Positions 1,815 to 59,715 of a DNA stretch of 63,764 nucleotides are shown one piece after another. This DNA comes from Negaprion brevirostris (Eukaryota): the NCBI GenBank assembly GCA_030324005.1, contig JARDVH010000193.1:43881328-43945091 (forward strand), in the 5' to 3' direction. The notes beneath the pieces were generated by a model. The model was not told where the DNA came from and did no database searches. It was given only the letters and a program-made list of their open reading frames with translations. The stretch's first letter is position 1, and every line of letters begins with the position of its first letter. A program made the position numbers and the translations under genes.

Positions 1815-3140
1815 AAGAAGCACAGCAAGTCATTCAGTATCTGTGGAGCAAGGAAAACAGTTAATGTTGACAACCTTTCATCAGAACTGGAAGAAATTAG
1901 AGATTTAACTGTCCTGACTTGGAAATCTCTCACTACTACTTCATCACTGCGTCAAAATTCTGGAACTTGCTACCCAGCAGTATCTTGGGAGCACCTCACA
2001 TGGATTGCAAAGGTTCAAGAAGATGGCTCACTGCTGCCTTCTTGAGGGCAATAAGGATAGGCAGTAAATGCTGGCCTTGCTTGCCACATCCAGTGAATGC
2101 CTTTTTCAAAACATTTTTAAAGACAGTGCAGAACTGAAGGGTAGACCTGTGATAGGATAGAGGATAAAGATAGCTTAACAAAAGGGATGGATGATGGTGC
2201 AAGGCAAAAGGAAGTGCTAAAAGGACAAGTAAATAAGGAAAAGATTTGTGAATGGCAACACCAATTGTCAGCGGTCAGAGAAAATGGGAGCAATGATTAT
2301 GATCTGAGGCCTTAAGTCAATGCTGGAAAAGCTGTAAATGCCTGTCTGAGGTATGAGATGCTGCTCTTCAAGCATCCAAGCAATCCAACTTAATTGAAAC
2401 AGTTTGGGAGACCTCAGAAGTGAAGTCAGAGGGGAGAGGAGCAGCGCATTAAAATGATAGATAACCAAAAACTCAGGTTCATGCTTTTGGACTGATTAGG
2501 GAAATTAAGAAAGTGATCACCCAACCTGTGTTAGGTCTTATCAGCGTGAACACTGGAGCCTGTTTGTTAGATGCAGCCAAAATCACTGCAAAGGAATTAA
2601 GTGCGCATGTTGCCACCAACATCATCAATGTCCCCTACCTCCCAGAACTACAGAGATTAGTAGCCTGTCTCAATGGCCTCCTGTGATAGGAATAGTCCCA
2701 AACAGTACTACAGTTGAACTACAATAAACAGAGCAGCACAATGCCTGCGCAATGCGATCAACCACCATCAGTACATCTCTGCAGTCGCCTTCTTCTGAAT
2801 ACAGTTTCTTTATTAGTTATAACTTAATTTTGTGCATATTAGCCAACACTGCCAGCATAATTATACCTAAATGATTAATTCATGGAAGAAGCACAAATAA
2901 ATTGCTTTTATGGCTGAAAGGAGTGTTTGGGCTCCAGATGATGGGAAGGGAGTAGGTGAAAGGGCAGCTGTTGTATCTCCTGAATTTGGTACCAGAGGAA
3001 CAAGAGGAGATTTGGGGAGAATTGGCAAGTGGATCAGAATGACAGGAAGGGGACAGTTTCTTTTGAATGCTGAAAGAGTAGGGGGAGATATGTTTAGAGG
3101 CATCACACAGGAAGTGGTGGCATGGGATAGGATGTTCAGT
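1815..3140 (-). mobile_element. Decayed Penelope-like element (family P2): ORF remnants plus terminal repeat, interrupted at about 1912-2100 by a LINE/SINE tail
   Basis: Minus-strand remnants LEEQHLI (GIY-YIG C-terminal region), ISPPTLSAFKRNCPL and SCPFTYSL resemble recalled Penelope ORF motifs. Terminal motif ctgtggag...ctttcatcagaactgg is shared with the 36.2k and 54.5k copies. Confidence 0.7.
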
Positions 3141-3220
3141 TAAATGTGGGTGATTGGGATAGGGGGGTAATTCTGTCATGGTTCTGGGAGGAAGGGGAAA
3201 GGTGTTAATAATCTGCATAC

Positions 3221-3885
3221 ATGGCAACCTCCCGCTCCTCCATTGTTGCTAAATTATCAGATTACTTATCCAACATTCCATATTGGATGTGCAGAAGTTT
3301 CCTCCATGAAAATATTTGGAAGACTGAAGCTACATTAGTCCCCACTCCAAACTTAATTCCCTTGCTACCAACTCCAACTTCCACTTCCTATAACTTTTTA
3401 TTTGTACATGGAATGTGGGCATTGCAGGCTGGGCCAGCATTTATTGCCTGCCCATCCCTAAATGCCCTGTTGCAGGTCATCTGCTGCTGAAACTCTCAAT
3501 CATGCCTTCATTACCTCTGATCTTGACTCCTCCAAGCTGGTCTCCCACATTTTATTCTCCTTGCGGTCATCCAAAAACTCTGCCCATGTCTTAGCTCACA
3601 GTTAGTCCCATTCTCCTAGCATCTCTCTGCTTGCTAACAAAACATTGGCTGCTAGAAAACAATGTCTTGATTGTAAATTATCATTGTTTCCAAATCTTTC
3701 CATGGCCTCAATCTCCCTATCTCTATAATCCTCAGTCCCACGACAGTCAAACTATCTGCATTCCTCCAAATCTGACCTCTTAAGCATTCCTGATTTCCAT
3801 TACTTCACAGTCAGTGAGTGTGTCTTCGGTTGTCTAGGGTGTAATGCTGTATTACATTAAAGCTGCTATATAAATAAAATTGTTG
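3221..3885 (+). mobile_element. Decayed L2-clade LINE 3' part
   Basis: LSDYLSNIPYWMCRSFLHENIWKTEA resembles the L2 RT motif L..I..WM..NFL.LN..KTE; tail ...gctatataaataaaattgttg. Confidence 0.7.
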
Positions 3886-4042
3886 ATTCAGTGCAATGAT
3901 AGGGGGGCATGAAATTATAGAAGGACCTAGGTGAAATGTTCAAATGAATAGATCTGTGCTAGGTAATACACAAAATAGACAAATGTAGGATATTTGAGCT
4001 TGGAAGAAGCAATTGCGGGAGCGGGCGGGGGGGGGGAGGTTG

Positions 4043-4511: not shown

Positions 4512-5204
4512 GTTAGTGATCAGATGAAAGGTCTTGGCTAACTTTATAATCTAATTATTCCTTTCTAACCCAGAAGAACTGAAACCAAACCTTTGCTCCT
4601 GCCAAGTTAGATAAATTGGATTTACCCGCCAGTCTTGTATATGTATAAATAGTATTGGGTCACAACATAAACTTTGAACTCCAGTGATTCTGCTTCTGAC
4701 AGTATCAGCATTCTTTAGAATGTTCCTACATATATGACCTTGTGATCTCCTCCCGAGATGTTTCCTCGAATGGAAATAATTTGATGAAAGCTGTTCGTTA
4801 ACCCTGAGGACTTCAGTGGGATGTTTGCAGGACTAAGATGGAACCCAGTCTCTCCGTGGCAGGATGGAGACTCTCTCAGTAAATTTTCATTACCCCAAAT
4901 ACTAAAAGAAGATTATTATGGGCAGTTTTTTCCCCTAATGGATTAATACATCAAGATTTCCTGTAGTTTTTATGCAATTAAACCTTGCATGATGTGCATC
5001 AGTTTCTCTGTTTGATTTATTTGGTGTCGAGATGCCGGCGTTGGACTGGGGTAAAGTGGGCTNNNNNNNNNNNNNNNNNNNNNNNNNNNNNNNNNNNNNN
5101 NNNNNNNNNNNNNNNNNNNNNNNNNNNNNNNNNNNNNNNNNNNNNNNNNNNNNNNNNNNNNNACCTTGCATGATGTGCATCAGTTTCTCTGTTTGATTTA
5201 TTTG

Positions 5205-5297
5205 GTGTAGAGATGCCGGCGTTGGACTGGGGTAAAGTGGGCTTATTATCAAATAAACTGGTTGGACTTTAACCTGGTGTTGTGAGACTTCTTACTG
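5205..5297. mobile_element. Penelope-like (family P1) inverted terminal-repeat fragment
   Basis: Minus-strand end gagatgccggcgttggactggggtaaa fused to plus-strand gtgg..aaataaac..gttggactttaacctggtgttgtgagacttcttactg. Same family at 22.7k, 24.0k, 26.0k, 59.4k and 62.1k. Confidence 0.8.
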
Positions 5298-8200
5298 ATT
5301 TATTTGAGGCATGTTTTTAGTGATATGAAATTATTTCCTTTGGTTTCTGCCTTGAATAGTTTTCCCCTGTTCTTCACAAATATTTTCTTTGACAAGTCAG
5401 TGCTGCAGGGTTTTTTGCAAAGCTCTATTGGGGCAGGCTGATAGCTTTGCCTTCTCACATTCCCACAACTCTGTAAGCACCAAAATAAATGCCATGTTTG
5501 ATGCCTTGCAACATTGACTCCTCCACATACAAGTTGGCAGTGATGCTCCATAATTTGCCTGTACCAGTTACTGACTGTTGCATATGTTTGCGACACAATT
5601 GATTTGTGGGGGTCCGAAGAAGACATAGGAAAGGGGCAAATACATTTGTCTGTGTGTTAACTGATAGCAGCTGTAAATTCATTCATTCATGCATGTGTGC
5701 GCACACACCCTCTGAATGCAGAAGGCTGTGTCTGTGCTTGATGCCTGCCCATACTTGACTTGGAGTAGTAAAGGCCAGCGGTAAAACTGTGGCCTCACAG
5801 CATTTAATCTTCAGAACAAAAAGGTGTGATGGCATAAACAAGGTGTGGGCTTTTGAAATGCTTTTTTTGTGTTTAGTAAATAGCTGTCTTCTAGAACTCT
5901 ACTCTGGTTATAATGATGAGACTTCAGTGCAGCATGAGGTTAAAATGAATAATGATGTATTTTCTGAGCTTTGCTGGGGAGAAGGTACAAAATGCAGATG
6001 TTTCTGTGCTGTGGTAAGTCATTAGCTCTCTAATGTTTCTGATGTTCAATCTTTGAAAATCATTGAAGAGCAAGTGAAGCTTAAGAATACAAGTCGTTCT
6101 TCAGCTGTAATTATAAACTAACATGTTAACTCCAGTTCAATGTATTTAAAACCACAGATCTTTTTCAAACTTTCAACTCAGTAAACATTTCTGTGGATAA
6201 ATGCACGTTCTGGTGGCTATGGTGTAGAGATTTAGTGTTTTTCCAAAGCTGAAACCTTGTGCCTGCTACCTCCTTTGATGTTCTACATTTAGCCATTTAC
6301 ACAGGCAATGAGAAAACAGCATAAGCTGTGATGTTTCAAATGTGTCAGTTTTGAAAATCTCTCCTCAGCCGAGTCTTGTCATCTTTAGCTCTGATTCCAA
6401 CTTGGTTCATCTAGTATTGCTGTACTTGGTGTCAAATTCTAAACTTCTCATTTGACCATTATCACTCAACCGGGTGAACTGAATCGGCTCCCCATTAAAC
6501 ATGTTGAAGGATAACGGGGAGGGAATTCAGGGTTAAGTGTATAGAGCAGGAGGGTGTACGGGGGAGACACAAAGCTAAGTATATAGCAAAATTGTTTCAC
6601 CTAATTGACTATGGGTTTTTGATGTCATCTGTTTTGGACTCTGCTGGGAGACCACATCTTGACATGTAGGGAATAGGGCGTTTCCTGACATGATGCATGA
6701 AGCATTACAGCAATGTGAAACAGGCTAAATAGACCTCTTCAGCTTTTGAGTGCTCAGAAGTTCGAAGTCATTCCCAGTTTTTGGATTTTTATAGGTTCCA
6801 CTGAGATATCAAGAAATAAATGTAAATAATCTTAATGATTGTGTGTGTAAAACAGTTTTATTTTACACAACTTCATTCATTAAGAAATGTCAAACTTCAC
6901 TGCTAGATTTTATGAAAGCGAACACTTTCTATTTCTGTAATGTCCTCACGTTCTTGCGATATATCAAAATCCTATGTGTCCAGTGAGTGATTTTTGAACT
7001 GTAGCNNNNNNNNNNNNNNNNNNNNNNNNNNNNNNNNNNNNNNNNNNNNNNNNNNNNNNNNNNNNNNNNNNNNNNNNNNNNNNNNNNNNNNNNNNNNNNN
7101 NNNNNNNNNNNNNNNNNNNNNNNNNNNNNNNNNNNNNNNNNNNNNNNNNNNNNNNNNNNNNNNNNNNNNNNNNNNNNNNNNNNNNNNNNNNNNNNNNNNN
7201 NNNNNNNNNNNNNNNNNNNNNNNNNNNNNNNNNNNNNNNNNNNNNNNNNNNNNNNNNNNNNNNNNNNNNNNNNNNNNNNNNNNNNNNNNNNNNNNNNNNN
7301 NNNNNNNNNNNNNNNNNNNNNNNNNNNNNNNNNNNNNNNNNNCTCTGATACAGCACTCCCTCAGACATTAGTGAATTCCAACTTTCTGACAAAAGATGCA
7401 TGCACAGAAGCTGTTGTAGCTTCCTTGTCAGGCCAGTATAGCAGCAAGAGAGGCCAAGTCTAGCAGAGATCCAGAAAATTAATTTTTTTTTGGTGACCCA
7501 TAAGGAAACCTTGCATTTCCCTTACTACCGGCTTCCTATTCTCTTTCCTGACATGATGCCTTCCCAATAGCCTCTGTCCACTTAGCTGAGTACTAGAGAC
7601 CATTTCTTCAGGGTTCTTACAATGGCCTCCTGATCCTGAAATGCCACTGCTGCCTGCTGACACTTCCCACGTGGAGCTGGGTGAGAGATGATGGAAGCTA
7701 TACAGATGAGAGCCAGGGGTTAAAGTCTCCTGGACAGTAACCTAAAGGTTTGCTGTCTGTCCAGATGCAGCCTGTGAGTTAACATAAACTTTAACAGTCT
7801 GATTAAAAATAATATTGCAACTTCAACTTTTAAGCGTGAAGTGGTTGTGCAGAATCTTTCAACCCAGTGAACTCTTCAGTGACTAGGCATTATTATGGTG
7901 GACTATGCAATATGTAATTTATTCTTTTTAAGCAAGTTATGAGTCACCTTTGATTCCTTGGTGAATATTCTGAATAGTTTTAAGGCTCTGTGTATAACGG
8001 ATTATGTGCTTTCCAGCTATGTGTAGGAGTTGCTGTGATTGTCTCCAGTCCTGAACAGTGCAAGCCACTAAACAGTTGCTCAGAGCAGTGAATTTCTTTT
8101 CTCACTATGTTTCTCTTGCCTCTTTGCTGATGACATTGACTCCTTGTTGGGATATGTGTCGATGCAAATCCACTGACCACCAGTATATGTTTTCAAGATA

Positions 8201-10180: not shown

Positions 10181-13100
10181 GTTAGTGATGTTTACAAATC
10201 AAACTGGGCCTTGATGATTTAATGGATTATTTTCCCCACTGAGCCAGAATTGCAAAGCTTTTTTTCAAGCATATGGAAAGAATCGGTCAATATTGTAGGG
10301 CTGTGTTCTGAAGATTTGGTACACACACACTGTACTCACTGCCCCGTACACTAATGGTACAGACTATTTGCTCCATGTCAGATAACCGCGCCTGGGATGG
10401 CAAGATCAGTGGTTAAATGTTGCTGCTGCTGTTCTCGAACATACATACAACTTCAACCTCTTACCCACAGAACTGACGAATCCCTTAAACAACTGTTTCC
10501 TGGGTTGAAATTCTGAGAGATTCAGAACCTCCCAACCTAACTTTATACCACCGCATGGATTGCAACCATTCTTCAAGAAGAAGGGCAATTGGGGATGGAC
10601 AGCAAATGCTGGCCTAGCCAATGACTTCCATATCCCTTGAATCAAATAAAAATTTGTATTTATATAGCACCTTTTGCAACCTCCCACCATATTTAGCAGC
10701 CAACAAAATGCACTACTTTTTTTTGAAAGTGTAATCACTGGCAAACAATTTGTCCATGGTAAGGCCTTACAAATAATACTGAGATAATGGCCTGATCTAT
10801 TTGCAAGGACACTGGAAAAGCTCCTGGCTCATTTTTGAAGTAGCAACATCTGATATTTTATGCCCACCTGAGAGGGCATACAGGGACTTCATTTATCTTG
10901 TCATCTGAAAAGCACTACCTCTGACTGTGTGCTGCACTCCTTCAGAACTGTCTGGATAGTGTTTTCAAGTCTCTGGTGAGTGAGACTTAATCCTGCAACT
11001 TGTAGATAAGGACAAGAATGTTATCATCAAGCCTGAGGCTGCTTGAATCAGATCTCAATGGATCTTTGATGTCCGTTAAATTATAAATAATGAGTCAACC
11101 CCTTGAGCAGAAGTAGAAACATTTTGCTGCATCTTTGTTTTGTACAGGTGGGATTTCTGGTTTCTCCAGTTCTCTCTCTGATCTGTTTGTGGCAGAAAAC
11201 CAAAAGCATAATTTCGGTAACTATTCAGGGTGCAAAGGTTTGACAGGATTGTAAAGCTTCTTTACTCAAATGTTAATTAGCATCATAAATGCGAGTTAAA
11301 TTCTTTTGGCCATCAGTTAGTAAGCATGAACGTGTCAGACTCACCAATTCTGGTCGCTGATTTACCTGAATAATGCAAAGGCTGTTGTCTACTCAGCTGT
11401 GGTATTCGTTTATTGGCAGGAAACTTAAGGAGAAACCTGATTGTCTGATTAGATCCATGAAACATGGATTGTTTGTTGATGGCCATCAATTCACTGTAAA
11501 GAAAGGACCAAAAAGATTTGACGATGTAATTAATCATTAATGAAAATAAGACTAAATAGGTAGTTTTTTACTTGTTCATGGGATGCAGATGTCACTGGCT
11601 GGATCAACATTTATTGCCTGTCCCTAACTGCCCCTGAGAAGTGTGATGAATGTTTAAGGTAAAAGATAAAATATGCAGCCGTTTTTCTGGAGAGTTATTT
11701 TGACATGCTAAGTGGAGAATACTGTGCAAGAACAGGTATCTTTACAGGTAAGAAACCTGCCTTGTGAATTAGCACTTTTCCAGCAACCTCCAAGATCTGA
11801 TTTACACTGTGCTCTGGATGTGACCCTTCTGGCCCTATAAAAGTAATAAACTGTAGATACCAACCTTATCCCAAGATCTTGATCTGTGTATATTCCATAA
11901 GAGGATTTTTTCCCCCACAATTTTCTTCTTGCCTTGAAGTTGTGCGTGTTAGGTGCATTGGCCATACTAAATTGCCCACTAGTGCCCAAAAATCGTAGAT
12001 TTGGGGGATTAACCAGGTAAATATATGGGGTTACGGGGATAGGGCCTGGGTGGGATTGTTGTCGGCGCAAACTCAATGGGCCGAATGGCCTCTTTCTGTA
12101 TTGCAGGGATTCTATGAATGTGTAATAAACACTGTAAAAAGCGCACATTTTCCTGCCAAGCTGTCCAAAGTACAGTTGTGTTTCTGGAAAGGTTGAGGTC
12201 AGAATATTTGGCTCTATGGTGCCTGGTGTTTTGGGTGCAAGATGGCCATAGCAAGCTTCTGGTGGACAAGACAGCATTTTGGTGAGGCTGTCATTTTGAT
12301 GAAGATGTCACTGCTGATGTTAGGAGTGTGGTGGTGGAAGCATGGCGAGTAGGAAAATTGAGATATCAATCAATATACAACTCTTCCAGTGCCATTTTTG
12401 ATCTTGGCGTTTCAGCTGATGCACTCCTTAACCACACACAGATGAGCATGCACTCAGCAACAGGTAGGATCTCACATCAGTGATATTTAAAAGTAAGATC
12501 TGGCTAACTTTCAGATCAATTACAGATTTCTACTGGCTGTTGCTGGGTTAGTAGAAGTTTGTGGAGTTTAGACTGCTACTTAAAAGTTGGTGAAGTTGAT
12601 GAGGAGTGGACTGTACATGCTGAAAGTCTTGGTACGCACACCAGAGGATCTGCTGATATTGACAAGGGTTGAAAGTTTTTGTGCAGGATTACCAATGCAT
12701 CCAGCATTAGATCCCAGTTAATCCTAACTAAGTTTTATTTCTAGGCTATTGAAAAGAAAACTGAGTTTCCCTGCTTTTCTTGGGACAGTTACAACCACGT
12801 GGTCACCATTTTGGTGATGGATGTATTTCTCTCCCTGCTGGTGATAGTGAGTCATAGTTGTGCTGTTGAAGGTTGCTAATTTTCATTCATTGATATTGTG
12901 AATTTTTGTCTTCCAGAAAGCTAAAGGTGTTCAGTACCCCATCAACACAGCGGAAAGCTTCTCCTCGAGCTGGCAAAATGTTCAACATTTCTCATAAATC
13001 ACTCCCACCCAAGAGCCCTCAGCCTGAACGGCTGGATGAGGTTTATGAAGCTTTGAAAAAGGGTTTAAAGTAAGGAGTTCTTACTTTCTGCGAGCAAGTG

Positions 13101-22100: not shown

Positions 22101-25100
22101 TCTGGTTCCACCGGTGTGGCCAAGTCGACGTCTCCTCATTCATGGGGATCATGTCTACTCCCCGCTAGTGCACATCTTTGCCCGCAAGGTCATAAGGTGG
22201 GTGGGGCTGGATGATTGAGGACTGGGCTTGCTAAGCAGATGCAAAGTATTTCCATAATACAGTTCCATAAATTAGCCTACTTCCTGCCCATTTCCAGTGT
22301 GAGGTTGACCGCGTCGGAAATGCTGCGCTTGTAAAACGACGCCAGTTGTGAAAACCAGTGGCAATCACGCTTAAGTACTTTATGCCTGAAATTACCACAG
22401 CGTTACACCCAAAAAACAGGCACAAAGTGGTGATAAAATCACCCCCTTAGTCTCTGTTATGTTTCGGCTGTTATGGCATCATCAAGAGACTTCAGATTTT
22501 GCTAGGAACAAAGGTTTTACTGATGAGATAATTAGTAAAGGAGATTTATTCAGCACAATGGCTGCCCTGGGGCAGAGCCAGTTCTACATTCTTACAATGT
22601 AGTTCCAGAAGTCAAATGCTTGAGAGAGGACACTCTGTTCAGTGTAATATCTCTTGCTCAGTTCCTATTGGTCCCTCAAGTCAGGTGACTAACTTCCACT
22701 GTCCTGCCTTAAAATGATGTGGAGATGCCGTAATAATCACAAACAGCATATAAAGGCGCACACAGTTTACAGAATACTGATTAGAATGCGCGTCTTTATA
22801 ACTAATCAAGTCTTAAAGGTGCAGACAATGTGAGTGGAGGTAGCATTAAGCATAGGTTAAAGAGATGTGTATTGTCTCAAGACAGGACAGTAAGTGAGAT
22901 GTTGCAAGCCCAGGCAAGTCATGGGGGTTACAGATAGTGCGACATGAGCCCAAAATCCCGGCTGAGGCCGTCCTCATGTGTGCGGAACTTAGCATTCAGT
23001 CTCTGCTCAGCGACTCTGAGCAGATTCTGCTCCACAACATGACTAGTCAGCAATGTCCACATCCCACGAAAATTAATGTTATCCCCGTTCCCCGTGTAGA
23101 CACGTTACAATTCATTCTGCTTACTCCCTCTCTCTCTTGTGTTCGTTTCTCTTTCCCTCCATTTTGTTCTGTATCTTTAAGATGTTATACATTTCCATGT
23201 CCGCAGTTCCGACGAACAGTCCACCTCTGAAACTCAATCTCGCTTTATCCCTCAGTAGATGGCGCCTGTCCTGCTGAGGACCCCCAGCAATTCCTGCTCT
23301 TGTATCTTGTAATGTCAACAAAGAACTTGAAGAATATCGGAAAATAAACCATTGCTTAAATTTGCAAATATTCTAACCGCGTTTCCAAAACAAAAAAAAA
23401 CCTGCCTGGGACTGGACTGGAGTTATACTTCATTCTCTGTGAAGCCCAAATTATGTGGTAAGAAAATGTCCTAAAGTCCTCAGGCCCTTGACCCTTGGAA
23501 CAGACTGATTTGCAGGAAATGACAGTATAAACGATGCCTAATGAAGGTAAACAACAGACTTGATAGGGATTTCAACTCAGTGTTTAAAGAGGAAATATCT
23601 GGCCCAATTATTTCCACTACACTGGAACTCTCCCCGCCGTTTCTCTTCTCACTGAAAGTTGGTCGGAAGCTCGTTCTCTTTACTGTGGATATTAGAAAGC
23701 TGTAGTTCCCATATTTCGGTCACAGGGATACATTCAGTACTGGCTAAGCCTAAGAGAGTCAGGAGTCTGTGCCTCCTCTCAGCTTACGTCTGTAGGAGGA
23801 TATAGAACCATAGAATCCCCTCATTGCAGAAAGAGGCCATTCAGCCCATCGAACCTGCACCGACAACAATCCCATCCAGGCCTTAGCCCACTGACCNNNN
23901 NNNNNNNNNNNNNNNNNNNNNNNNNNNNNNNNNNNNNNNNNNNNNNNNNNNNNNNNNNNNNNNNNNNNNNNNNNNNNNNNNNNNNNNNNNNNNNNNTCTC
24001 CACTCACATTGTCTGCACCTTTAAGACTTGATTAGCTGTAAAGACTTGCATTCTAATCAGTATTCTGTAAACTAAGTGTGTCTTTATGTACTCTGTTTGT
24101 GATCAGAACTCCCATTCACATGACAAAGGGGCAAACCCCAAAAGCTAGTGGTGTTTATTACCAAATAAAACTGTTGGACTTTAACCTGGTGTTGTGAGAC
24201 TTCTTACTGTCTTAAAATGACAGATAGCACATGCACAATGGAGTCTTCCTGTCATTTGTGGGATCCATTAGCAGATCTTTGAGAAGAGGAAATGTCTTCC
24301 AGTCATAATCCTGAGTTTTTCTTAGTATTTTCCCTCTCCAAATCTCTGTTTTGTAAATCAACATTGGCCTTCCCCAACATTTCCACAGCAAAGGGGTCAC
24401 AAATGCCCCAAGTTCTTCAAGCCTGTCTTTCCAGCTGCAACTTCTGCTTTGTGGAACATTTAGTGCAGTATTGCTCTTGACGTGGTTTTACATATGGTCG
24501 GTAGCTCTTATAAATGTAAAAGCTGTTTCATTCACCGTGTAAACTGTTTCTACAGTGCTTTAAAATGTGCTACAGATGTGCTTTAAAACAAGTGTGTATA
24601 CAAACTTTGTGTATGTGCCATTTTAAAATAGCAGTCAACGATCATTTCCTGGGGACTAATGGCCTCCTCAGTGGCTGAGGAAGCTGTGTAAAAACCTGCA
24701 ATGATAAAGCTGTTTTGATGGTAATCTGCACAGTGCTTCTTTTCATGGTCCATGCTGCTTCTGAATATAAGTCAAAGTAGTAAAATCTGTGCATGGTAAA
24801 ATTATATTGTTTATATGCCAATTTACAAACAGTTGGTGCAATGTTTTGCTCCATAGCACTGTATTTACTGCTAGCAGGAAGTACTTAGAGGGTTTATGGC
24901 TCATTTACGCAATTGGCTACGACACTGATGTGTCCACCCTGAATTATTGAATATGCTGCCAAGTCGAGACCACACACCAGAAAAAAAAATTGATTTGTAT
25001 GAGGGCCACAACACACACTTGAAATCTTCTCCTCCCAAAAAATGCAGCTATGTGTACTTACAGGTGATTTATTCTTAATCCAAGATATTTTGTAATTATA

Positions 25101-43927: not shown

Positions 43928-44001
<74 letters not shown>

Positions 44002-47000
44002 ATATAATGGGGAAGGAGGAGAAGGTGAGAGTGACGTCAACAATAATTCCAGTTGAGGAATGGATCAAGTATGTGATATGTTAGATTAGGTGGGTGATCA
44101 CAGATATCAATGTTGATTTGTGTAAAGGGGAAAGCTGGTGGGAATACACATTCCTAACTCTTTGATTAGTTGAATTATCATGATTTANNNNNNNNNNATT
44201 TAATAAGGTACCATATGACATTACTGCATTTGCCCTTTGCATGTGTAACTGTCTCCCAGATTTGAGAGTGTCTCCAAACTGTAAAACACATGGAACAGGC
44301 AGTTTCAATAACTTTAAATTCTGTCTCTAATGAGGGATTTCAGCACCTCACTTTTGAGAATATAGCCTCTAATTTCCCCAAGTTGCAGCTTCAACTTGGC
44401 CTGAAAGCCCTTTTGCTTCTTGTGCCTGCAATGAGTAGTCAGGCAGCTGGACTCCAGCTCACCCTGCCCCAACAACCTCCCAGTCACTCAATTACTTAGT
44501 CTGAGACTGCATCCCACAGTATTCGCTAGGCTGCGGCAGAGTCTATACTCGGACATAATTCCTGCTTCCAAGCTGTGTTGCTGCCAACCTTCTTCCGTAC
44601 TCCAACTCTCAGCTGTCCTGAACAACTACTTCTCCAGGGCTTCATAAAGCCCAAAGTCCTCAGCAGCACAGGGCTATCAACATTTCCTGGGGCTTCTGTG
44701 AGCCCCAGCTCCCTCAGCAGCGTGGAGCTAATGACAGCACTTCAGTACTATGGAGCTCATCTTCCTCTTTATTTGGTCCTGACTGTGTCTCGTGGGTACT
44801 CTTTCATGTGCAGACAGACATGCATATACAGTCACCTGCATACACATCCCCCTCAGGTCCCATGGTTAGGTTTTCACACTGGACACTGGTCACATGATCA
44901 ATTTTTAGTACTGCATACTGCGTAGGCTCATTGCTGATCCATCCTCTGACATCCATTAACTAGAATTGCCCCCCCAAGGAAATCCTACAGACCAAATTTA
45001 AAAGAGATGGATTCCCTGACAGTGATGCAGCCTGATTAAATTTGCAGGGAGCACTCAATCATTCTATAGAAAGAGTTTAGTCATTGCTCTATTAATGGAG
45101 TATGTAAATAATATTGATTATGGTGTTAACTAAGAGTTGATGATTAATCTCTCATCCCCTGCCACAGCTTATTTATGCTGCACTTACCTCATGTCAGAAA
45201 GAGCCATATTCTCTCCTGCTCGTATTTTTGTCTTTCAGAAAACTCGCGTGATCTTTGGTTTTCTCATTAGTTTTTCATTACTTTTATGAATGTGTATTTA
45301 TTGAGTAAAATCTGACTATCTGAGTAAAGAGAGTCATACGCTTGCTGCGTAGTTCATTTACAATTGGTTTATTTTGAGCTGGAAATAGGCCTGAAAAGGA
45401 CTGTGTGTTTGAATGATCCATTGTGGGTGTTAGCACAAAGAATTGAACTCAGGAATGTACTTTCATGCCTCATCAGCAACTGTGAATTTATAAGTGCTGG
45501 CAGCAAGATAACCTTTCAGAATATGTCTAGAGCTAGTGAGACCATAATGGAAAACTGAGTTGTAAGCATTTCATTTTGGGCTTGTATCTAAATGCAAATT
45601 NNNNNAGAATAATTTCATAGAACCATAAATTGGTTACAGCACAGAGATCATTTGTCCCTCATGTCTGTGTTAGGCTCTCTGCAAGAACAGCTTGCCTAGT
45701 CACACTCTCCCCCCTTTCCCCCATGGTGCTACGAGTTTTCTCTCCTCAAATAATTCTTCAATTCTTTTTTGAAACCACGATTGAATCTGCCTCCACCATG
45801 TTCTTAGGTGGTTCTACCCATTCGCTCCATAAAAATGTTTTTCCTCATGTCACCGTTGCATGTTTAGTCATTCGTCTTAAGTCTGTGCTCTCTGGTACTC
45901 TATCCTTCTGCCAAAAACAGTTACACCCTCTTTACTCTGTCCAGATTCTTCATGACTTTCAACTCCTTCATCAACTGTCCTTTTAGTCTCCTTGTCTCGC
46001 AAGAAGAACAACTCAGCTATTCATAACAAATGTTCCTCATTCCTGGAAAAATTTTTGTGAATCATTTCTGTATCCTCTCTAATTCCTTTACGTCTTTCCT
46101 AAAGTGTCATGCTCAGAATTGGACACAATCTTCTAGTTGAGGCTGTACCAGTATGTACAGGTTTATGTAACTTCCTTGTTTTTGCACTGTATGCTCCGAC
46201 TTGTGCAAGTCAGGATCCATTATCTTTTATTAACCACTTTTTCAATCTGCCATGTCACCATCAAGGATCTGTGCTCGTATACTCCTAGGTCCCACTGCTC
46301 CTGCATTTCCTTTGTTTTTTATGCCTCTCCTCATTCCTCCTACCCAAATGAATCGCTTTACATCTTGTTGCATTAGCTTTTGCCTGCCATGTGTTTGCTA
46401 TTCTACCAGACTGTCCATGTCCTTTTGAAGTTTAGCTGTATCTTCCTTACAACATTGGCAAGTATTGTGCATGGTATCATCCCTAAGTTCTGATCTTGTG
46501 CCCTGTACATCCAAGTTTAGGTCATTTATATAGTTCAGAAAAAGCAGTGGTCAGAACACTGACGCCTGGGGAATTTTGCTATATATCTTTCTCCAGACTG
46601 AAAAACAACTATTTAGCACTGCACTTTGTTTCCTGTCACTCAGACAATTTGTATCCATGCTGCTGCATGCTTCTTACAAGGTACAGACCATATCCAACCA
46701 ATCCTTACTTGCAAAATTCAAAGCACAGCGTCAAACATTAGATATGATTCTGCGATTGAACAACGTTTGCGAGTATAATGGTAGNNNNNNNNNNNNNNNN
46801 NNNNNNNNNNNNNNNNNNNNNNNNNNNNNNNNNNNNNNNNNNNNNNNNNNNNNNNNNNNNNNNNNNNNNNNNNNNNNNNNNNNNTGATCTTATTGAATGG
46901 CGGGGCAGGCTCGAAGGGCTGGATGGCCTACTCCTGCTCCTATTTCTTATGTTCTTATATTCTTATAATCCTCGGTGTGCTAAAAAAAATTATGCTGACA

Positions 47001-50000
47001 ACCAGTTTAAGATTGTCAGCCTTACTCTGGCACATTTCCAAGTATGTATATAAATATAAAGGGCCCTGTTCTTTGCAAACAAAGAACAGGTATACACATT
47101 GCACCTGTTTCAGATAAACAAGATAAGTGACGATCATTCTTTAGGGTCATATCTTAGCCAATCAGAGCCAAACTGCCTGGTTTAAATTTCAAACAACGCT
47201 TAGTAGTTAACAGCCAGTTACATTGAACGGATATCTCCATGGCACCTTCTTTGCCAGTCAGCACTCTTCTTCTCATATGGTACAAATTTATTATTTCTCC
47301 TGACACTGGTATTCTTGCGAATTGTCCTGATGAGTGCAAGCTGAAAATCTTTAACAAAATGTATCTTTCTCAGCAAGATTCGAGCTTTGTACTGCCAAGC
47401 AACTAGTAACTAAAGGTATTGAAGGAGTATGGAGGCAGGTCACAGATCAATCACAATTTGATTGACGGGCTGAATCTAGTGATTAATTGACCTTTTTGTA
47501 TGTATATTTTGAAGTGTAGTAGTTTGAGGCTGGAGATGCTTTGCTTGTTGAAATGTTTCTACTGCAGCTACTTGGAAGCAATACCCACTAAACCGCTGAC
47601 CATCCCATGTCCCTTTCTGTCTCTCATAAAGGCCAAGGTTACAAATGACTCCTTTCAAAATCACTATCATTGCCTATGTTCGGAAGTAAAATCTATCTTT
47701 AACCAATCTATCCTTGCAAACTTCCATTTTATCTTTAATGTTCTTTTCTTGTGCAACTTATTGTCATTTCCCTATGTTCGTCTTCCCTGAACTTTATCTC
47801 GGTGTATTCAGATATGTTTTTGCCCCTTAGAGCACAGACTGCTAGATCTTTCTCACATATGTGCTGGGAAATCTTTGACACAGAGAGGTTAGCTTTTATG
47901 TGAATGCTGATGACACTCACCTCTTGACCCTTCCACTGATGCTATTGGGCTACTTTTTCAACACCTAGTCTCAGATGAGCCATAATCTCCTCCAACTGAA
48001 CATTAGCGAGGCCAAATCTGAGTCTTTTTTCTTCCACGATCTCTTGCCACCAATTCCCTGGCCACTCTCGGCAAGCACCAGGCAGTTTCCACTTTCAATA
48101 ACCAAATCAATGTCGATCTAGGATTTAGCCCCCAATCCTTTCCTTCACAAAAACTACCCTATTTAATTTCTGTGATCTCAGCTGCCTCTATCCTTACCAC
48201 AACCCATCTGCCTTTGAAATTTTCGTTAAAGTTTTTCATACCTTCAGATTTAATTATACTAATGCTGATGTGACTGGCCTTCCATCCTCCCCGATTTCTC
48301 AACTTCAGTTCATCTAACATTCTGCTGTTTGTTCCAGTGCCCCATCTTTGCTGAGATACATTAGCACCCTGATCTCCCAACAATTCAAATTTTAAAATCT
48401 ATTCCTGCAATTTGAATGCCCTTTGACCTGTTTATCTCTTGTGTTTTCTTTCATGTATGAAAAAAGGAGTGTTGTCATTTAATGTCTCATTTTAAAAATA
48501 TTATGTAGTTTGGTTCAAAGTGATCTAATTGAAATGATTGTTCACAAGCAGAAGTTTAAAGAGTGGGGGCAGTCTTCTGAGAATTCCTTAGGAGTCTCCT
48601 GAAGTTTGACATTAGAAGGTTCATTGCTTGGCCACAGTCTCAAATGGAGCTTGACATTGACAACTTCTCCCATTATAATCTAGCCTTCCTACATAGGCTG
48701 TACCTTCTGTAGCCATTTTAAGCATAACGTAATATTGTTGACAGCAACAGTGATTATTACTGTAGGAATCATGGTGTTTTTTTTCTTTCCTGTCTGCTAG
48801 TTTCTATACATATTTTTTCTTATAAAGTTTGTGTGTCTTTGTTTCAGGGCTTGCAGGGTTTGCACGTCTCTGCCCAGGAGACCAGTATGAGGTGAGGAAA
48901 TATGGAAGAAGTATTTTTTAACCTAAACAAATCTCAAAGATTTAAAATTTTCTCCTTTTAACCACATTAAGTATCACTTATTCTGACATGGTATGTTTTT
49001 AGGCACTGTCTGCAGGATGTTGAAATATATCATTACATAGGTGGTGAAAGTTCGTCATCCTTTAAGATCAACCTGTCCTGCAATCTCCCTATAGTTTGGA
49101 GCATTCACAAGGAGTTCTCCTAACTTCCTGATTGGCAAAACAAATGGTAGCCATTTTTGGCAATTTTTCGAATTATCAGAAATTTCCTCCTCATCTGAAG
49201 GTGCTGGCGACTTGGAGTAAGGATCCATTAGTAGCACACCTCACCAAAAGAGCCATTGTTCTTGTGAGCTTCAGCAGGCAGGGCCATAAGCTTGATCCTG
49301 TCTTTAACCAATGTCCACACATGCACTTGCTTCCAGCCTAGGGTCATCAAGCAGCAACTGTGAACCATATCCAACTCCAGTTCTTGGTCTATCATTGTGT
49401 AGGTTATGGCACTTCAAGTGCTTAACCAAGTATTTTCTAAATGTTTTGAGGGTTTCTCCCGCCATCATCCTTTCAAGCAGTAAGTTTCAGACCCCAACCA
49501 CCCTCTAAAAAAATTGTCTTTAACTTCCCTCTCATCCTTCTACCAATTACTTTAAGTCTTTGCCTCAGGTTATTGACTCTCTGCTAAGGGAAAAAGGCCC
49601 TTCCTATCCACTCCATTCAGGCCCTGAATTTTATGTAATTCCATTTAATCTCCCCTCCGCTTCCTCTGCTCAAAAGAAAACAACCTCAGCCAATTCAATC
49701 TTTGCTCATAGCTGCAATTCTCCATTTTTGGCAACATCCTCATAATCTCCTTTGTACCCTCTCTAGTGCAATCACATTCTTTCTGCAAAGCTGTACCCAG
49801 ACTGTATGCAGTACTCTCACTGTGACCTGACTAGTGTTTTACAGTTCTGGCATTACCTTTCTGCTCTTATCCTCAATGCCATGACCACTTTATTGACTTG
49901 TCCTCCTACCTTCAGTGATCTTATGGACATGCATTCCAAAGTCACTCTGCTCATCTGCACCTCCCAGAATCCTCCCATTTATTGTACATTTTCTTGCCTT

Positions 50001-53000
50001 GTTTGTCCTTCCTAAAGAGATCACCCCCACACTTTTCCAGGTGGAGTTTAATTTACTAGACTGTTCATCTGACTATTTCACTGCTAAATTCTTGCTTGCC
50101 CCAGCTTTCTTCCTCGCAATCAACCAATTTTTGTATTATCTGCCAACTTAATCAAGTCCACTATGATTAAGTCTAAATCATTGATATATAACCTGAACAA
50201 CTAAGGACTCACTACTGAGCCCTGTGGGCCCCCATTAGAAGCAACTTTTCATTACTCTTGGTTTCCTGCCACTGAGCTAGTTTGGGATCCAACTTTCCTT
50301 TAGAACCCATGATGTCTTAATTTTGTTCAGTCTGCCAAGCCAAAAGCCTTACTAAAATCCACATAAACAAATCAAACACTATATCCTTATCAACCCCCAC
50401 CTTTGTTACCCTCTCAAAACTCCCAGTCAAGTTAGTCAGACATGGCCTTCTCTTCCCTTATCCATGCTGACTATCATTGATTAATCTGTGACTTTCCAAA
50501 TGATGAATCATACTGTCCCTCAGAATTTTTTTCCATAATTTACCGACCATAGGATGGGTAAATTTACCCACCACTCACGTAACTACTCAGCTTATCCCTT
50601 CCAACTTTTCAAAGTAATGGTACAACCTTAGCTGTTGGCACCATGCCTGTAATTGAAGAGTATTGAAAAACGATGGTCACAGCCTCCACTATTTTTTCTC
50701 CTTCATTGAGGATACATTTCATCTGAGCCAGATGATTTATCCACTTCCAAGATACTAAGCATCTCAACGCTTACTCCCTCACTATGTTTTCCCTATCTAA
50801 TACTTCATGCTTCTTAACAATTATGTCTATTTCATCTGCTTATTTTGTGAAAACGGATGCAAAATATTCGTGAAGTTGGGCCCCCACGCCTATTTTCTCT
50901 GTGATCCAGGTGGTGAGGTTAGTTGTAGCACTGCTACCTCAGCACAAACTGGGAATCATTCATGGAATTTTTGTATGTGCTTAGCTTGGTTCCTCACTGG
51001 ATAAATATGCATTGGGGAATTTGCTTGAAAGCACAGTTGCAGCAAAGTTTACAATTTCATTCTAAACAGCTATGAGTGCAGGAGATGTTTGGTAACAGTG
51101 CGCTGCGACACAAATGGCTGAAAATTGTAAAATGTATTGAGTGGTAGACTCTAAGCAATGAATGTCTTAATATTACTACCGTGGAAAAATCCAGATGTTG
51201 CAGCCTGACCACAGCCTTGCTGTAAGTTTTGGTCTGAGAGGAAGTAGGGGGATGAATATATTTCTGATGAATCATACATCTATCTAATATCTATTGGCAG
51301 ATATTCATGAAATATGGTCGCCAACGGTGGAAGTTGAAAGGTCGCATTGAAGCAAACGGGAAGCAAGTATGGGATGGTGAGGAGATGGTATTTCAGCCTC
51401 TTGTTACAGAGTTCCTCTCGATCAAGGTAAGGACCTCTGGTTCACTCACAAACAACATTAATTTCTCACCTTCCAGTTCTTCAGATTCGTTGAAATAATA
51501 TCAGTTTGGAGAGAGTGGCTACATGTGTTTCTAGATGATACAAGGAGACACACTACATAACTTTTTTGTTACTTAACATGTTCCTGTTTACAAAGAGAAG
51601 CTTTCCAGCGGGAGGTCACCATATGTTGAGAGCTCTCAAGTTAACTATTGCAAGAAGTGACTCTACAACCTTTATTTCCACAAGTTGCTTGACTTACAAA
51701 GCTGAATCCTGGGGTCTAAATTCAAGCCTTTGACCATTAATCTTGACTTTACTAAAAATAAAACCATTTTAAACAAAGACTGAAGTGTAAACAAAGATGG
51801 GAAGACAAAATTGTCCTTTTCTGGTCTCAATCTCCTCAACCCACAATGTTTCTCACAGAAGAGTTGTCCGAGTGACCTCCTACCCCTCCAAGGCTTCATA
51901 TACTGCTCTCCCCCACCTGACTGTTCAGCTGCATTGACACAAGGTTTCCACCCTATGTACAGCTCTTGGTACAACACTGCGCTAGCCCAAGCAAAACTGT
52001 TGGGTTCCATTCCAGATCTTAAAATGGTCTCAGTGATTGTGATGATTTTGCTTGGATCATGTGGATAGAGATGCAGTGCCAAGATGTATGGGTGCTTATT
52101 GACCTGTGGTATGAATAAATCATGTCAAACTTGGGCTCTGCATAAAAGGAAGTAATGAAAAACTGCTGCACAGAATGAAAATTGGACATATTGCAAACTC
52201 AGAACATTAGAACCAAATTGGGAGTGATGGGGGGAAATCATCCAGCATATTGTACATCTCACCTTAGTTGCTTACAGTATGATGGTACTCTCCTTTACAG
52301 ANNNNNNNNNNTGCTGGGGTAAAAGTCCCACAGGTACTAATTGTTTGAACGTACCAGGAAAGATAAGAGCATCAGTAGGTGGTAAAGAGCCCCTCTGCAC
52401 CTTAGTAAATTTGCCAGTAAATTTAGTAAATCTTTAACGTCAAACAGCACCTTCACATCTAAGGATTAGTTGTCAAGCTGTTCGTTTTCTGATGATCTGT
52501 TAATGGCGTGGGAATGTTTTATCGGTGAATATCCAGTTACCAAATTAGGTAGCAGAAAACATTCTGATGATTCACAACTGTTTTATTGATACTGAAGTTC
52601 AGTGTAAACACTGGCTTCCACTCTTCCCTTTTGGATCCTCTTCCTGTCCAGAAGCCAAATGTCTACTGGGGGTAAAAACAGCTCATAAGTATAAGCTTCA
52701 GTGACTATCACCTGCTTTCAGTTCACTCTCAAGCAAGACCTGGTTTGCTCTTAAAGGGACATGCATTTCTAACATTATCAGGGAAGGCAGACCCACAGTA
52801 AATTTGTATTCCCCCCCACCCTCTCCTCTCCCTCCAGTGGAGGACAAGGAAAACATTCTTTCTTTTAAAGATGCAAGAAGAAATATTTGAGGTTAGGGAA
52901 GAAAGAAATTTCAGGAGCAGATCTTAATCTGGGTTTCCACGATGGTTGAGTCACTCTGTTGCCCTACTACAGCTTCAGAAACACTCAGCATTACAGTGCT

Positions 53001-56000
53001 TTTGTCTATGTATTAACACAGTGAACTAAACAGCACTTAAAGCAGCAATTGCAATATGCAGTGCTTCATCCATAAAGAGGAAGGGATTGCACAGGACATT
53101 TTTGGTCTTAGTAAGAACTGTTCTGGAAAGCTGTGAAGCATCAACAACATTTATCTGTTAATTTTGCAGGTAACGGAGCTGAAAAGCCTGGCAAATCACG
53201 TCATAGTTGGCAACGTCTCCTGTGAAACAAAAGATTTGTTTGCAGCCCTGCCTCAGTCTGTTGCTGTGGATATCAATGATCTGGGAACTATTAAACTCAG
53301 TCTAGAGGTCATTTGGAAGTAAGTCTTTCATAGTTTAAAAATCAGATGAGAATAGTCTTTTGTAGCATGTTCATGGCACGGAAAATGCTTTGTCCACAGC
53401 AAAACTTGTAAGAATATTAGATAATCAAAGGACTACTTTTATCTGGCTACAATGGACCCTTTCAATTGCACTCTGCTCCAAGCTCTGCTTTGATTTTTAC
53501 AAAAAGTGTGTCATTCAGAATTATTGCACTACTGCAGAGGACTCGTGTTAAGAGTTTAACTTGTTTTATGCAGTCTTCAATAGAATGATGCATATTTATC
53601 CGCAAGTCAACAAAACTCTTGCCAAACATGTAAAGAAAGGCTAAAAAAAAATCCGGTTGCTCTCCCCACACTGACAATGCACGGTGCACCCCTCCTCTGC
53701 AGTCATACAAGTAAAAAGCCTTGCCATACCACCCCTTCCCTTGGGAAATCGTGCAAAGTCGAGAAGACAGCAGTGATCAGTACCCCAACTCTTTCCTGCT
53801 AGCCCACCTATCTTTTAATGATGTGAGAATTTCCACCCTTGGGAAATCTTCCTGCTCCACTTTGTGGATTTGCTGCACAATTTTCATTCTATGCACTGGC
53901 CACTCATTCCAGAAGCTGACAATGCTTGTGGAAAAAAAGTAACACCCTGGCATCCATAAGTATTGTGGCTAGTCCCCTACCTTGCTTATCAATCTCTAGT
54001 AACTTAGTCCACATTGACAGAACTAAATTGCTTCATAATTTTAAGTATCTCTACCTTGCCTCTGTTGAAGCCTACATTTTTCCAAGGATAAAAAGCCCCA
54101 TCTCTTCAAATCTGTCCTGCTAATTTGCGGCCCTTAAACTAGGGGCTAAAAGTCCTTAACCAGTTGGGTGGCCCTCCTTCAAACCATTTCCATAATGTTG
54201 TTATCCCCATAATTCAAAGGACCCAAAACCATATACTATAAGGTGGCTACACTAGGTACGAATAGGACTTCTAGTTTGATAGTTAATTGTCCTACCTATG
54301 CATTCTAATACCACATACACTTTCACTACAGTACTGTCTATCTAGCTGCGTAATGAGCAGCTCCAATAAGAATAGGACTAAAAGTCCCAACTGTAAACCT
54401 TTCAACTCACTGAGATCAAGATTATCTTCAGTACTTTGTAATCAAATCCCAATTCAGGATTAAAAAGAAAAACAGGAATTGCTAGAAGTATTCAGTAAGA
54501 AAAGACAGCATCCATGGAGAAAAAGAGTTGATGTTCTAGTTGATGACCTTTCATCAGACTAGAACTATAACTCTCCACAGCCCTGTCTGACCTGCCGTCT
54601 ACAGCATTTTCTGTTTTATTTAAGGTTTCCAGCACTTGCACTACTTTGTTTTGGCCCAGTTAATAATTGCTCTTCAATACTTTGGGACTTTACTCAAGGC
54701 CAATCCATGACTTTGGCTTTACTCAAGCTTTTCTTAGTGCTTTTCTTGGGTACTAGATTTAATTGCTCAGGGATTTTAGAAGCAGAAGAGGAGCTGAACA
54801 TTATTGATTATTTTTGCTTTGTTCTAAAGTGCATTAAGGAAAGGGACTTAAATCAACTGACCAAAAAGACTTTATGCCAGCAGGCTTAGGTGGTGCATGA
54901 GGGAAATGGATCAGGGAAATTTGAAATATGGAGCTATTCAAATGTTACAAGTACATAAACATTAAGATTATCAGAGACATTTTTTAAACCCCAATGCCTG
55001 CAATATGAACAATTTCATTTAAGTGTAATATTCTTCTCTCCTCGTGCCTTGTCAGGATACAATTGTGTTGTTGCCATCGCCACCCCTGATTTTAAGCCAA
55101 TTGTTATTCCCCTCTTGTTTCTGGTTTATATCAGTTCACTGCGTACTAGATTTGGGATTGAACCTAGGACTTTTCCATTCATTTATTAACTAGATAAACT
55201 TGACATGTGTTCTTGTTAGCAACTGTATGTTGTAAATTTAAACTTGGTGAACATCAGTCAGCTAATGAAGTAGTTCACTTAAGAATGGCATGGCTGTGGG
55301 TTTGGGGATTTGTGAACTCCACTCACTAAAACTGTTAATTGTGAAGTGCAAGGGAAAAGTGCAAGGTTTTATTGCCTTGCTTTCCTGACATGGATTATCT
55401 CTGCTTTTATTTTTTTAAGTCATTATGTGCTTCTTTTATAGTTAACACTTGATTAGCCCCATAACATTTAGATTAGATCTTGAATGAGAGTTGGTTGTTA
55501 AAGTGACTTTAAGATTTGGGAATTGTGGCCTGAGGACCCTCTGATATGAATCGAATAAGAACTATAGATATTAGCTTCTTTCCGTGTCTGAGAGAATTTA
55601 AGCAATACTCAAGCGGATAAAGATTTTTGTGTCCTTTTATAAAGGCCTCCAGTACTCTGTCCAAACATCGTGTTTCAGTCTATATTGATGCTCATTGTTA
55701 TGAACATCGTAACAATGCGACAATGTTGCATTGTTAAACAAAAAGCTTTGAAGAAAATGCTTGACTGCACACCACCCTCCCCTGCACACCTCCATTTGCA
55801 AGTAACTTATATCCCTCACTTGAATAGTTCAGACCCATTTATTTATTATTGCCCTTCCTGTCATTTGTTTGTAATATTTCTTTTAGTGCTTTTATATACA
55901 AGGCTCATTAGTTACAATCTGCATCACTGGGGGCCGTTCGCNNNNNNNNNNNNNNNNNNNNNNNNNNNNNNNNNNNNNNNNNNNNNNNNNNNNNNNNNNN

Positions 56001-58592: not shown

Positions 58593-59379
58593 GTAAGTCT
58601 CTCTACAGGTGTATTCTGTTATGGATATCCTGAATGTAAGGATGCTTTGCACAATCGCCCAGATTGGTATATTCCTTGAAATGTGTGAAGTGTTTTCCTT
58701 GTGATCCAAACTGCAGTCTTGCTTAGTACAACCCAGTCGTTCTGTTGTTTTAATTTTACAATCTGAAGACAAATGCCTTGGTTCAGATTTGACTCTGGGC
58801 AGCTTAGTATTAATATGGACCTGCTGTGGAGTAGGGTCAACAGCTATGACAGAGTTTGAAAAGGACTGTGTGCGCACTTATGGAAGAAAAGGGAAAGAGT
58901 CATCCTCATGTATACTCCGCACAGTAAAATCATTGATTATCCTTCATAAACATGTCTACGATTTCAATGCACCTCAGGAACAGAGAACCTTTCACTCTGG
59001 CTGTATGGCTTGCACATTCTTAGCTCCAAGTTGTCATAGTGACGGAGGAACTAGAGAGGGGAGGAAAGGGCTGGCTGGCTAACAAAGGAAAAGCAGTATC
59101 AGAGAAGAGTGACACGAGAGAGAGAGAGCTATATTCTGACTGAAGCTGTTAATAAATTACAACAGTCGGATCTACTTGTGCAGCCAGAGACACTAAGGTG
59201 TGTAATTCAGGAGGTAGCTAACGTGTTTACTGACTGCTGCCGCAAATCATAATTCTCTATTTTTAACCAGTTATTTAAGTTGTAAGGTTGCCATTTTATT
59301 TCTTGGCCTCGTGGTATTAGAGATGTACTCTCACCAGATAATGCTAGAAAATGAATCTCTGTTTAAAGTCTTCAATAAA

Positions 59380-59715
59380 AAGTCTGACAACACCAGGTTT
59401 TAGTCCAACCGATTTATTTGACAGTAAACTCACAAGCTTTTAAGGTTTCCCTCTTCGTCAGGCGAATGGAGAGTTCTGGCCTCAGACAGAGCATATAACA
59501 GCACCGACAGTTTACAGATTACTGATTAGAATGCAAGTCTTTACAACTAACCTGTTATTCAAGTCTTAAAGATGCTGATGATGTGAGTGGAAAGAGCATT
59601 GTGCATAGGTTAAAGAGATGTGTATTGTCTCCAGACAGTACAGTAAGTGAGGTTTTGCAAAGACAGGCAAGTCATGGGGGCTACAGATAGTGTGTCATGA
59701 ACCTAAGATCCCGGT
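59380..59715 (-). mobile_element. Penelope-like (P1) 3' end plus terminal repeat
   Basis: Collinear with 22740-22960 and reverse complement of 23996-24210; ORF end RDLRFMTHYL*. Confidence 0.85.
59428..59467 (-). ncRNA. Minimal type I hammerhead ribozyme-like motif (G12>A lesion)
   Basis: Minus strand ATTCGC CTGACGA A GAGG GAAA CCTT AAAA GCTT GTGAGT. Confidence 0.7.

What the first reader, a model, noticed from the sequence alone, without database searches (positions are those of the whole stretch)
1858..59467. Three unrelated Penelope families have left about nine hammerhead-like relics across one gene
Seen: motifs of the form helixI-CTGANGA(A)-helixII-GAAA-palindrome-helixI' at 1858-1889(-), 23204-23240(+), 24115-24150(+), 26083-26120(-), 36255-36295(-), 36304-36338(+), 47322-47357(+), 54525-54560(-) and 59428-59467(-). 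Helix II differs between copies but stays paired: GGGG-CAAA-CCCC, GGGGC-AGT-GCTCC, GAGG-GAAA-CCTT, GAGTCA-TATT-TGACTT. This covariation-like pattern supports a real structure. Every copy has core or helix damage. Inference: elasmobranch genomes may hold very many PLE-borne ribozymes, and sense-intronic copies may be selected for inactivation. The class is known in PLEs; I cannot tell whether these families are described.
Basis: partly seen in the sequence, partly recalled or inferred. Interest (0 to 1): 0.7.

Follow-up and report, generated by a model that had tools for sequence, protein, structure and literature searches.

The report
Decayed Penelope hammerheads in shark introns
The nine motifs are broken copies of a small RNA motif already known from Penelope-like jumping genes, left by three such families in and around one gene; they are damaged about equally on both strands, so the host likely does not need to disable them, probably because a lone copy would barely cut.

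Summary
All nine sites are real: each is the hammerhead-bearing 3' end (pLTR) of one of three Penelope-like retroelement (PLE) families, linked here to RT and GIY-YIG relics. Two families are Neptune-type relatives, one is Poseidon-type, so 'three unrelated' is only partly right. The host gene is RIPOR/FAM65, + strand. Helices I and II and the 3-8 core pair covary across subfamilies (a U3-A8 subfamily exists). The class is published (minimal hammerheads in PLEs, 2014), and this scan noted the same thing on other shark-like DNA. The abundance idea holds: 2,801 exact core-intact copies of one subfamily pattern; about 360,000 ends by rough extrapolation. The selection idea got no support. In 1.08 Mb of introns from 12 genes, copies were 77 sense to 68 antisense; intact cores 9 of 31 versus 10 of 27. 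Genome-wide, the core-killing CpG change (1,069) is no commoner than the core-sparing one (1,210). Damage looks like neutral, CpG-driven decay. Also, 52 of 75 family A copies sit in head-to-head twins that bring a hammerhead on each strand.

The parts
1815..1889 (-). Family B pLTR end; hammerhead 1858-1889 with box 2 deleted
5210..5298 (.). Family A tail pieces, head to head (5210-5236 -, 5237-5298 +); no hammerhead left
12917..13069 (+). Host exon, RIPOR/FAM65 (Pfam PL48)
   Evidence: E 7.7e-12; splice ends read
22730..23021 (-). Family A endonuclease C-terminus and 3' UTR; the hammerhead is missing and the copy runs straight into the tail end
23204..23308 (+). Diverged family B pLTR end; hammerhead 23204-23240, sense-intronic
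   Evidence: (E 1.4e-7); a direct DNA search of the genome returned only itself
23997..24214 (+). Family A pLTR end; hammerhead 24115-24150 (C3, G8, G12 changed), sense-intronic
25988..26125 (-). Family A pLTR end with long tail; hammerhead 26083-26120, antisense-intronic
35391..35540 (+). Host exon, RIPOR/FAM65 (Pfam PL48)
   Evidence: E 5e-21
36161..36295 (-). Family B twin, antisense arm; hammerhead 36255-36295
36304..36405 (+). Family B twin, sense arm; hammerhead 36304-36338, core boxes intact, helix II shortened
46678..47405 (+). Family C (Poseidon-type) endonuclease C-terminus, 3' UTR and pLTR; hammerhead 47322-47357, core boxes intact; sense-intronic
51271..51495 (+). Frame holding a further host exon (others near 10134, 16089, 38288, 48859, 53269 and in frame 58350-58679)
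   Evidence: found with short motifs recalled from RIPOR proteins
54455..54560 (-). Family B twin, antisense arm; hammerhead 54525-54560
54555..54651 (+). Family B twin, sense arm, truncated inside the hammerhead
59372..59715 (-). Family A 3' UTR and pLTR end; hammerhead 59428-59467 (G12 changed)
62137..62210 (+). Family A tail; upstream part falls in an N run
63392..63443 (-). Weak family B remnant
   Evidence: E 8e-5

Best explanation
The nine sites are decayed minimal type I hammerhead motifs in the 3' ends of three Penelope-like retroelement families, damaged to a similar degree on both strands of the host gene and likely decaying neutrally. Shown: each motif sits in a pLTR downstream of a GIY-YIG endonuclease frame; in family A the predicted cut lies about 90-100 nt before the element's own start codon, and copies end at two fixed points, before or at that codon. 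Shown: helices and the 3-8 core pair covary between subfamilies. Inferred: the structure was under selection only in the active master elements. Because copying starts in the 3' tail and usually stops early, nearly every stub carries the hammerhead, which explains the numbers. Shown: G12 lies in a CpG in all three families (G8 too in some subfamilies), and that change accounts for much of the damage. Inferred from published biochemistry: with only a palindrome in place of helix III, a lone copy needs a same-strand partner or the PLE protein to cut, so an intronic copy would be nearly silent and the host gains little by disabling it; twins would in addition fold back on themselves.
For: PLE link: RT frame (Pfam RVT_1, E 6.9e-8) followed by a family A hammerhead in L243; endonuclease upstream of family B copies in L047, L197, L252; 27 of 29 family C endonuclease loci carry the C pLTR profile. 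Covariation: family A 80.7% cells paired, score reached by 1 of 500 shuffles, slid controls 21-53%; family B 81.8%, 1 of 500, pair 3-8 C-G 9 / U-A 8 of 22. Strand: 77:68, sense fraction 95% CI 0.45-0.61; singles 42:33. Core state: family A intact 8 of 17 sense, 7 of 15 antisense; non-CpG core changes 4/153 vs 8/135; G12 lost 3/17 vs 7/15 (hand-curated); A+B intact 9/31 vs 10/27, p=0.58. Genome-wide G12-to-A 1,069 vs C11.1-to-T 1,210. Papers: single min-HHR showed no cleavage in vitro (PMC4209133); the anole PLE hammerhead cut only with PLE protein and no RNA-seq ends were found at its site (PMC11167929).
Against: Family B raw tallies lean the other way: non-CpG core changes 44/135 sense vs 15/81 antisense, p=0.028, with truncated and misregistered rows included; 35/126 vs 22/108, p=0.22, intact 1/14 vs 3/12 under a stricter rule. 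The family A result depends on how junction rows are handled (raw: 9/174 vs 22/171; 30/180 vs 15/153). The sample is 12 genes of two families, 22% masked by N, often over PLE coding parts. Twins cancel any count bias in family A. Covariation cells count subfamilies, not independent events; alignments were preselected for core boxes. No activity was measured.
Confidence: 0.8

Rival explanations
1. Sense-intronic copies can cut the host pre-mRNA (alone or by pairing with another copy in the same long transcript) and have been weakly purged or inactivated by selection.
For: Family B leans this way. Xenopus retrozymes are depleted from introns (bioRxiv 10.64898/2026.07.22.740005; no strand test in the parts read). 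All four sense copies in the window are damaged somewhere.
Against: 77:68 sense to antisense; family A sense cores no more damaged; pooled p=0.58 and 0.61; CpG change ratio 0.88 genome-wide; antisense window copies equally broken.
Confidence: 0.12
2. Some copies are kept intact by selection because they serve the host, for example in intron processing.
For: Family A core changes at non-CpG sites (12/288) are fewer than in the tail (123/1617), p=0.034; sense copies lose G12 less often; the killing CpG change is 12% rarer than the sparing one.
Against: Tail figures include subfamily differences; copies were chosen partly by how well the region aligned; context effects or masters with a G-U pair can explain the 12%; every window copy is damaged.
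Confidence: 0.05
3. The motifs are chance matches or only look like hammerheads; the pairing reflects shared descent.
For: No Rfam hit; weak single-site folding; helix II of family C has only about two pairs.
Against: Same core boxes, helix I closure and palindromic helix III in three families with different sequences; compensatory U3-A8 subfamily; same position in pLTRs as published.
Confidence: 0.03

Closest known systems
Minimal type I hammerheads (min-HHR) in pLTRs of metazoan PLEs (Cervera and De la Pena 2014, PMC4209133; parts 1-2 of 4 read, supplement file 2 searched)
   Same: Core boxes, short helix I, extra base after A9 (families A, B), G10.1-C11.1, palindromic 15.2-16.2, mostly single dispersed copies of truncated PLEs, opposite-strand pairs, and a U3-A8 variant (described there for Schistosoma).
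   Different: No shark entry in the text read or the searched supplement. Counts there were about 4,000 (coelacanth) and 9,000 (Xenopus); my extrapolation is tens of thousands of intact cores for family A alone. U3-A8 here is in a vertebrate Neptune-type subfamily.
EN+ PLE insertion structure: inverted 5'-truncated pLTR, optional 30-40 bp tail (PMC8557442 and PMC3846280, passages; PMC11167929, parts 1-2 of 4)
   Same: Head-to-head copies, palindromic junctions, tail on one arm only (16 of 26 twin rows long/short), two fixed 3' ends.
   Different: Here twins are the majority form of family A (52 of 75 hits) and are often two short stubs; in family A the hammerhead lies wholly upstream of the start codon, whereas in the anole element it overlaps it.
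Non-LTR retrozymes (PMC7229834, passages; bioRxiv 10.64898/2026.07.22.740005, parts 1-3 of 5)
   Same: Type I hammerheads, PLE-derived; found in one chondrichthyan; axolotl has 126,247 motifs, so such numbers have a precedent.
   Different: The window copies are dispersed stubs, not tandem units. One two-unit same-strand array was seen elsewhere (L038).

Membership tests
Minimal type I hammerhead of PLEs | Core boxes CUGANGA and GAAA with a U-H cleavage site | tested here: met
   Met at family level; both boxes survive in only 2 of the 9 window copies
Minimal type I hammerhead of PLEs | Helices I and II pair, with compensatory change | tested here: met
   Families A and B; family C not tested, its helix II is about 2 bp
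Minimal type I hammerhead of PLEs | Palindrome in place of helix III | tested here: met
   AGCU in A, ACGU in B, AAGCUU in C
Minimal type I hammerhead of PLEs | Located in a pLTR | tested here: met
   Downstream of endonuclease frames, upstream of the start codon; same-strand copies at both ends of an RT frame in L236
Minimal type I hammerhead of PLEs | Self-cleavage (dimeric or protein-assisted) | not testable with these tools
   Only assembled contigs were available
EN+ Penelope-like element | [quoted passage not shown] | tested here: met
   A; B: RT pieces and endonuclease in L176, Pfam GIY-YIG hit in L252; C: YVDD frame and endonuclease in L265
Neptune clade (families A, B) | CX2-5CxxC linker before the endonuclease (PMC8557442) | tested here: met
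   Present in L017/L204 (A) and L176 (B)
Neptune / Poseidon clades | Placement in an RT tree with reference elements | not tested
   No named reference PLE proteins were on hand; labels rest on motifs
Penelope/Poseidon clade (family C) | No Zn-finger linker; Poseidon-type endonuclease | tested here: inconclusive
   No linker seen in three decayed frames; the Poseidon label for the motif is recalled
Non-LTR retrozyme | Tandem head-to-tail units, each with a hammerhead | tested here: not met
   Window copies are single or inverted
Rfam hammerhead families | Covariance-model match | tested here: not met

The most novel reading that the evidence does not exclude
Shark-type genomes carry tens of thousands of core-intact hammerheads inside genes with no penalty for facing the sense strand, which would show in an animal that PLE hammerheads are switched off unless the element's own protein or a partner copy is present; and the dominant head-to-head twins with one long and one short arm are a fossil record of both cut DNA strands priming reverse transcription from the element's two start sites.
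Probability: 0.35. Interest if true: 0.55.

Novelty: new member of a known kind. Interest (0 to 1): 0.3.

Why it matters
The role of hammerheads in Penelope-like elements is still open. A genome with this many copies gives a natural experiment: whether a sense-strand ribozyme in an intron costs the host anything. It also warns that 'damaged cores' in such relics are expected from CpG decay at G12 and G8. The families are not in the papers I found, but Dfam and Repbase could not be checked.

Tried and rejected
Rfam scan: no hammerhead. Single-strand folding: uninformative. First pair count for family B used a helix II register off by one column; corrected. Idea that a short spliceosomal intron starts at the family A cut site (donor-like and acceptor-like words): no GT..AG joint among 12 joints in four RNA-guessed contig sets of related organisms; contigs are weak for this, so it is unsupported, not excluded. 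No RNA holder on record was listed. Lead from earlier notes that copies begin at the cut site: 1 of 66 family A alignment starts lay within 3 nt of it, while 25 of 66 lay 21 nt upstream to 2 nt downstream of C3 (profile starts are fuzzy). Automatic core tallies were distorted by twin junctions and gave opposite directions; for family A I dropped 5 of 37 rows and re-registered 3 by hand. A larger intron sample was not obtained, so intervals stay wide. Literature searches found no paper on shark PLE hammerheads or on their strand bias; subscription papers, the preprint's supplements and one supplement file of PMC4209133 were not visible.

Full report
Setting. The window lies on contig C193 of a 2.69 Gb genome. 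Two exons match Pfam PL48 (FAM65/RIPOR) on the + strand, and further exon-like frames run from about 10.1 kb to 58.6 kb (found with recalled motifs; the closer label RIPOR1 is recalled). Four of the nine sites are therefore sense (23204, 24115, 36304, 47322) and five antisense. Site 1858 is upstream of the first exon found.

Observation. The nine motifs read as described. Only two keep both core boxes; Rfam finds none and folding alone is mostly no better than shuffles. Profiles seeded from copies elsewhere in the genome hit all nine, with no hits on reversed sequence. The loci used as seeds were retrieved with the 59428, 36255/36304 and 47322 copies, so the other five sites are the more independent test (E 4.7e-6 to 1.8e-34).

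What they are. Family A (24115, 26083, 59428): a DNA search gave 6,589 candidates, the best about 90% identical. Upstream lies a GIY-YIG C-terminus; in L243 an RT frame (RVT_1) precedes the hammerhead, and L236 has same-strand hammerhead regions at both ends of an RT frame. Copies end at two points, the longer at the element's start codon. Family B (1858, 23204, 36255, 36304, 54525): older copies; endonuclease frames lie upstream in L047, L197 and L252. Family C (47322): 27 of 29 endonuclease loci carry its pLTR profile. A and B share the CX2-5CxxC linker given for Neptune in PMC8557442 (passages) and their endonucleases align (26-32%); C lacks a visible linker and did not align. So there are three families of two types. 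No RT tree was built.

Structure. In 34 of the 39 core-intact family A copies found, 80.7% of cells pair, against 21-53% for slid controls, with 13 two-sided changes at one helix II pair. In 22 of 23 family B copies found, 81.8% pair, and positions 3 and 8 are C-G in 9 and U-A in 8. The U3-A8 form marks one subfamily, also seen in the unbiased intron sample; it is one event, and the same swap is reported for Schistosoma (PMC4209133). These alignments were preselected for core boxes and related copies inflate the counts. All three families replace helix III with a palindrome.

Abundance. In 12 gene spans oriented by spectrin and ion-channel exons (1.396 Mb, 1.083 Mb unmasked) there were 75 A, 63 B and 7 C hits, 134 per Mb. 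Scaled up this is about 360,000 ends and about 37,000 core-intact family A copies, a rough figure from a non-random sample. One exact 35-letter pattern of one subfamily occurs 2,801 times, control 0. Axolotl has 126,247 type I motifs (PMC7229834, passage), so this is high but not unheard of.

Test of the selection idea. Counts: 77 sense, 68 antisense (p=0.51; 95% CI 0.45-0.61); singles 42:33. Core state, family A, after dropping 5 of 37 junction rows and re-registering 3: intact 8 of 17 sense and 7 of 15 antisense; non-CpG core changes 4/153 and 8/135; G12 lost 3 of 17 and 7 of 15. In four twins with both arms complete, the sense arm was more damaged in one and less in three. Family B is noisier and leans the other way: 44/135 vs 15/81 raw (p=0.028), 35/126 vs 22/108 under a stricter rule (p=0.22; 26 of 62 rows kept). 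Pooled: intact 9 of 31 vs 10 of 27 (p=0.58). Genome-wide, for the CpG formed by C11.1 and G12, the change that destroys G12 occurs 1,069 times and the change that spares it 1,210 times (ratio 0.88, p=0.003 against 1), the opposite of what inactivating selection predicts, though sequence context may shift the neutral ratio. All three family A window copies have lost G12. Strong selection is unlikely; weak selection is open.

Twins. 52 of 75 family A and 18 of 63 family B hits are in head-to-head pairs; in 16 of 26 family A rows one arm has the long tail and the other the short end (two antisense arms are counted in two rows). The window has two family B twins. Inverted pLTRs with a one-sided tail are published (PMC3846280, PMC8557442, passages). 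The anole PLE protein cuts and extends both DNA strands and starts at two sites (PMC11167929), which would give this pattern; that link is my inference. PMC3846280 instead suggests self-priming on an antisense template.

How it likely works. In the master elements the motif likely processes the element's RNA as a dimer or with the element's protein (PMC4209133; PMC11167929). Because copying starts just downstream, stubs keep it. In introns a lone copy would be nearly inactive and decays like its flanks.

Verdict. Real, correctly recognised, of a known class; this scan has noted the same class in other shark-like genomes and in this one. New here is a first strand test, which is negative. Interest 0.3.

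Noticed in passing
L038:128-498: Two same-strand family A hammerhead units about 222 bp apart, each preceded by the same piece of the element's ORF start: a retrozyme-like tandem that could form a dimer.
   Followed up: partly
L150:4805-4847 (-), L252:2183-2225 (+) and others: Family B subfamily with a U3-A8 core pair instead of C3-G8, linked to an endonuclease frame.
   Followed up: yes
window 22730-23021 (-): Family A copy that lacks the hammerhead and most of the tail but keeps the last tail bases; antisense, so not a sign of selection on cleavage.
   Followed up: no
window 47256-47320 (+) and family C loci: CCAAT-like and TATA-like words just upstream of the family C hammerhead, a possible internal promoter.
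   Followed up: no
family B tail, e.g. window 36340-36405 (+): Pyrimidine tract ending in CAG followed by ATG about 20 nt after the predicted cut; looks like a splice acceptor and could be exonised in sense introns.
   Followed up: no
window 29045-29383 (-): RT/RNase H fragment of an LTR-type retroelement (Pfam RT_RNaseH_2, E 9e-12).
   Followed up: no
window 4982-5243 and 36509-36551: Near-identical sequence on both sides of 100-base N gaps; likely assembly duplications.
   Followed up: no
window 13220-13405, 20687-20836, 31218-31413, 33001-33552, 39668-39850, 60117-60266, 61209-61371: Many copies of a SINE-like repeat; 145:172 by orientation in the intron sample.
   Followed up: partly
L250, L251, L249: Further GIY-YIG/RT relics of other PLE-like families (28% to the family A RT in L250); L249 is a short contig that may not belong to this organism.
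   Followed up: no
intron sample, CpG at C11.1-G12: Sense copies show C-to-T 6 and G-to-A 2, antisense 4 and 6; may reflect transcription-linked mutation asymmetry; numbers too small.
   Followed up: partly
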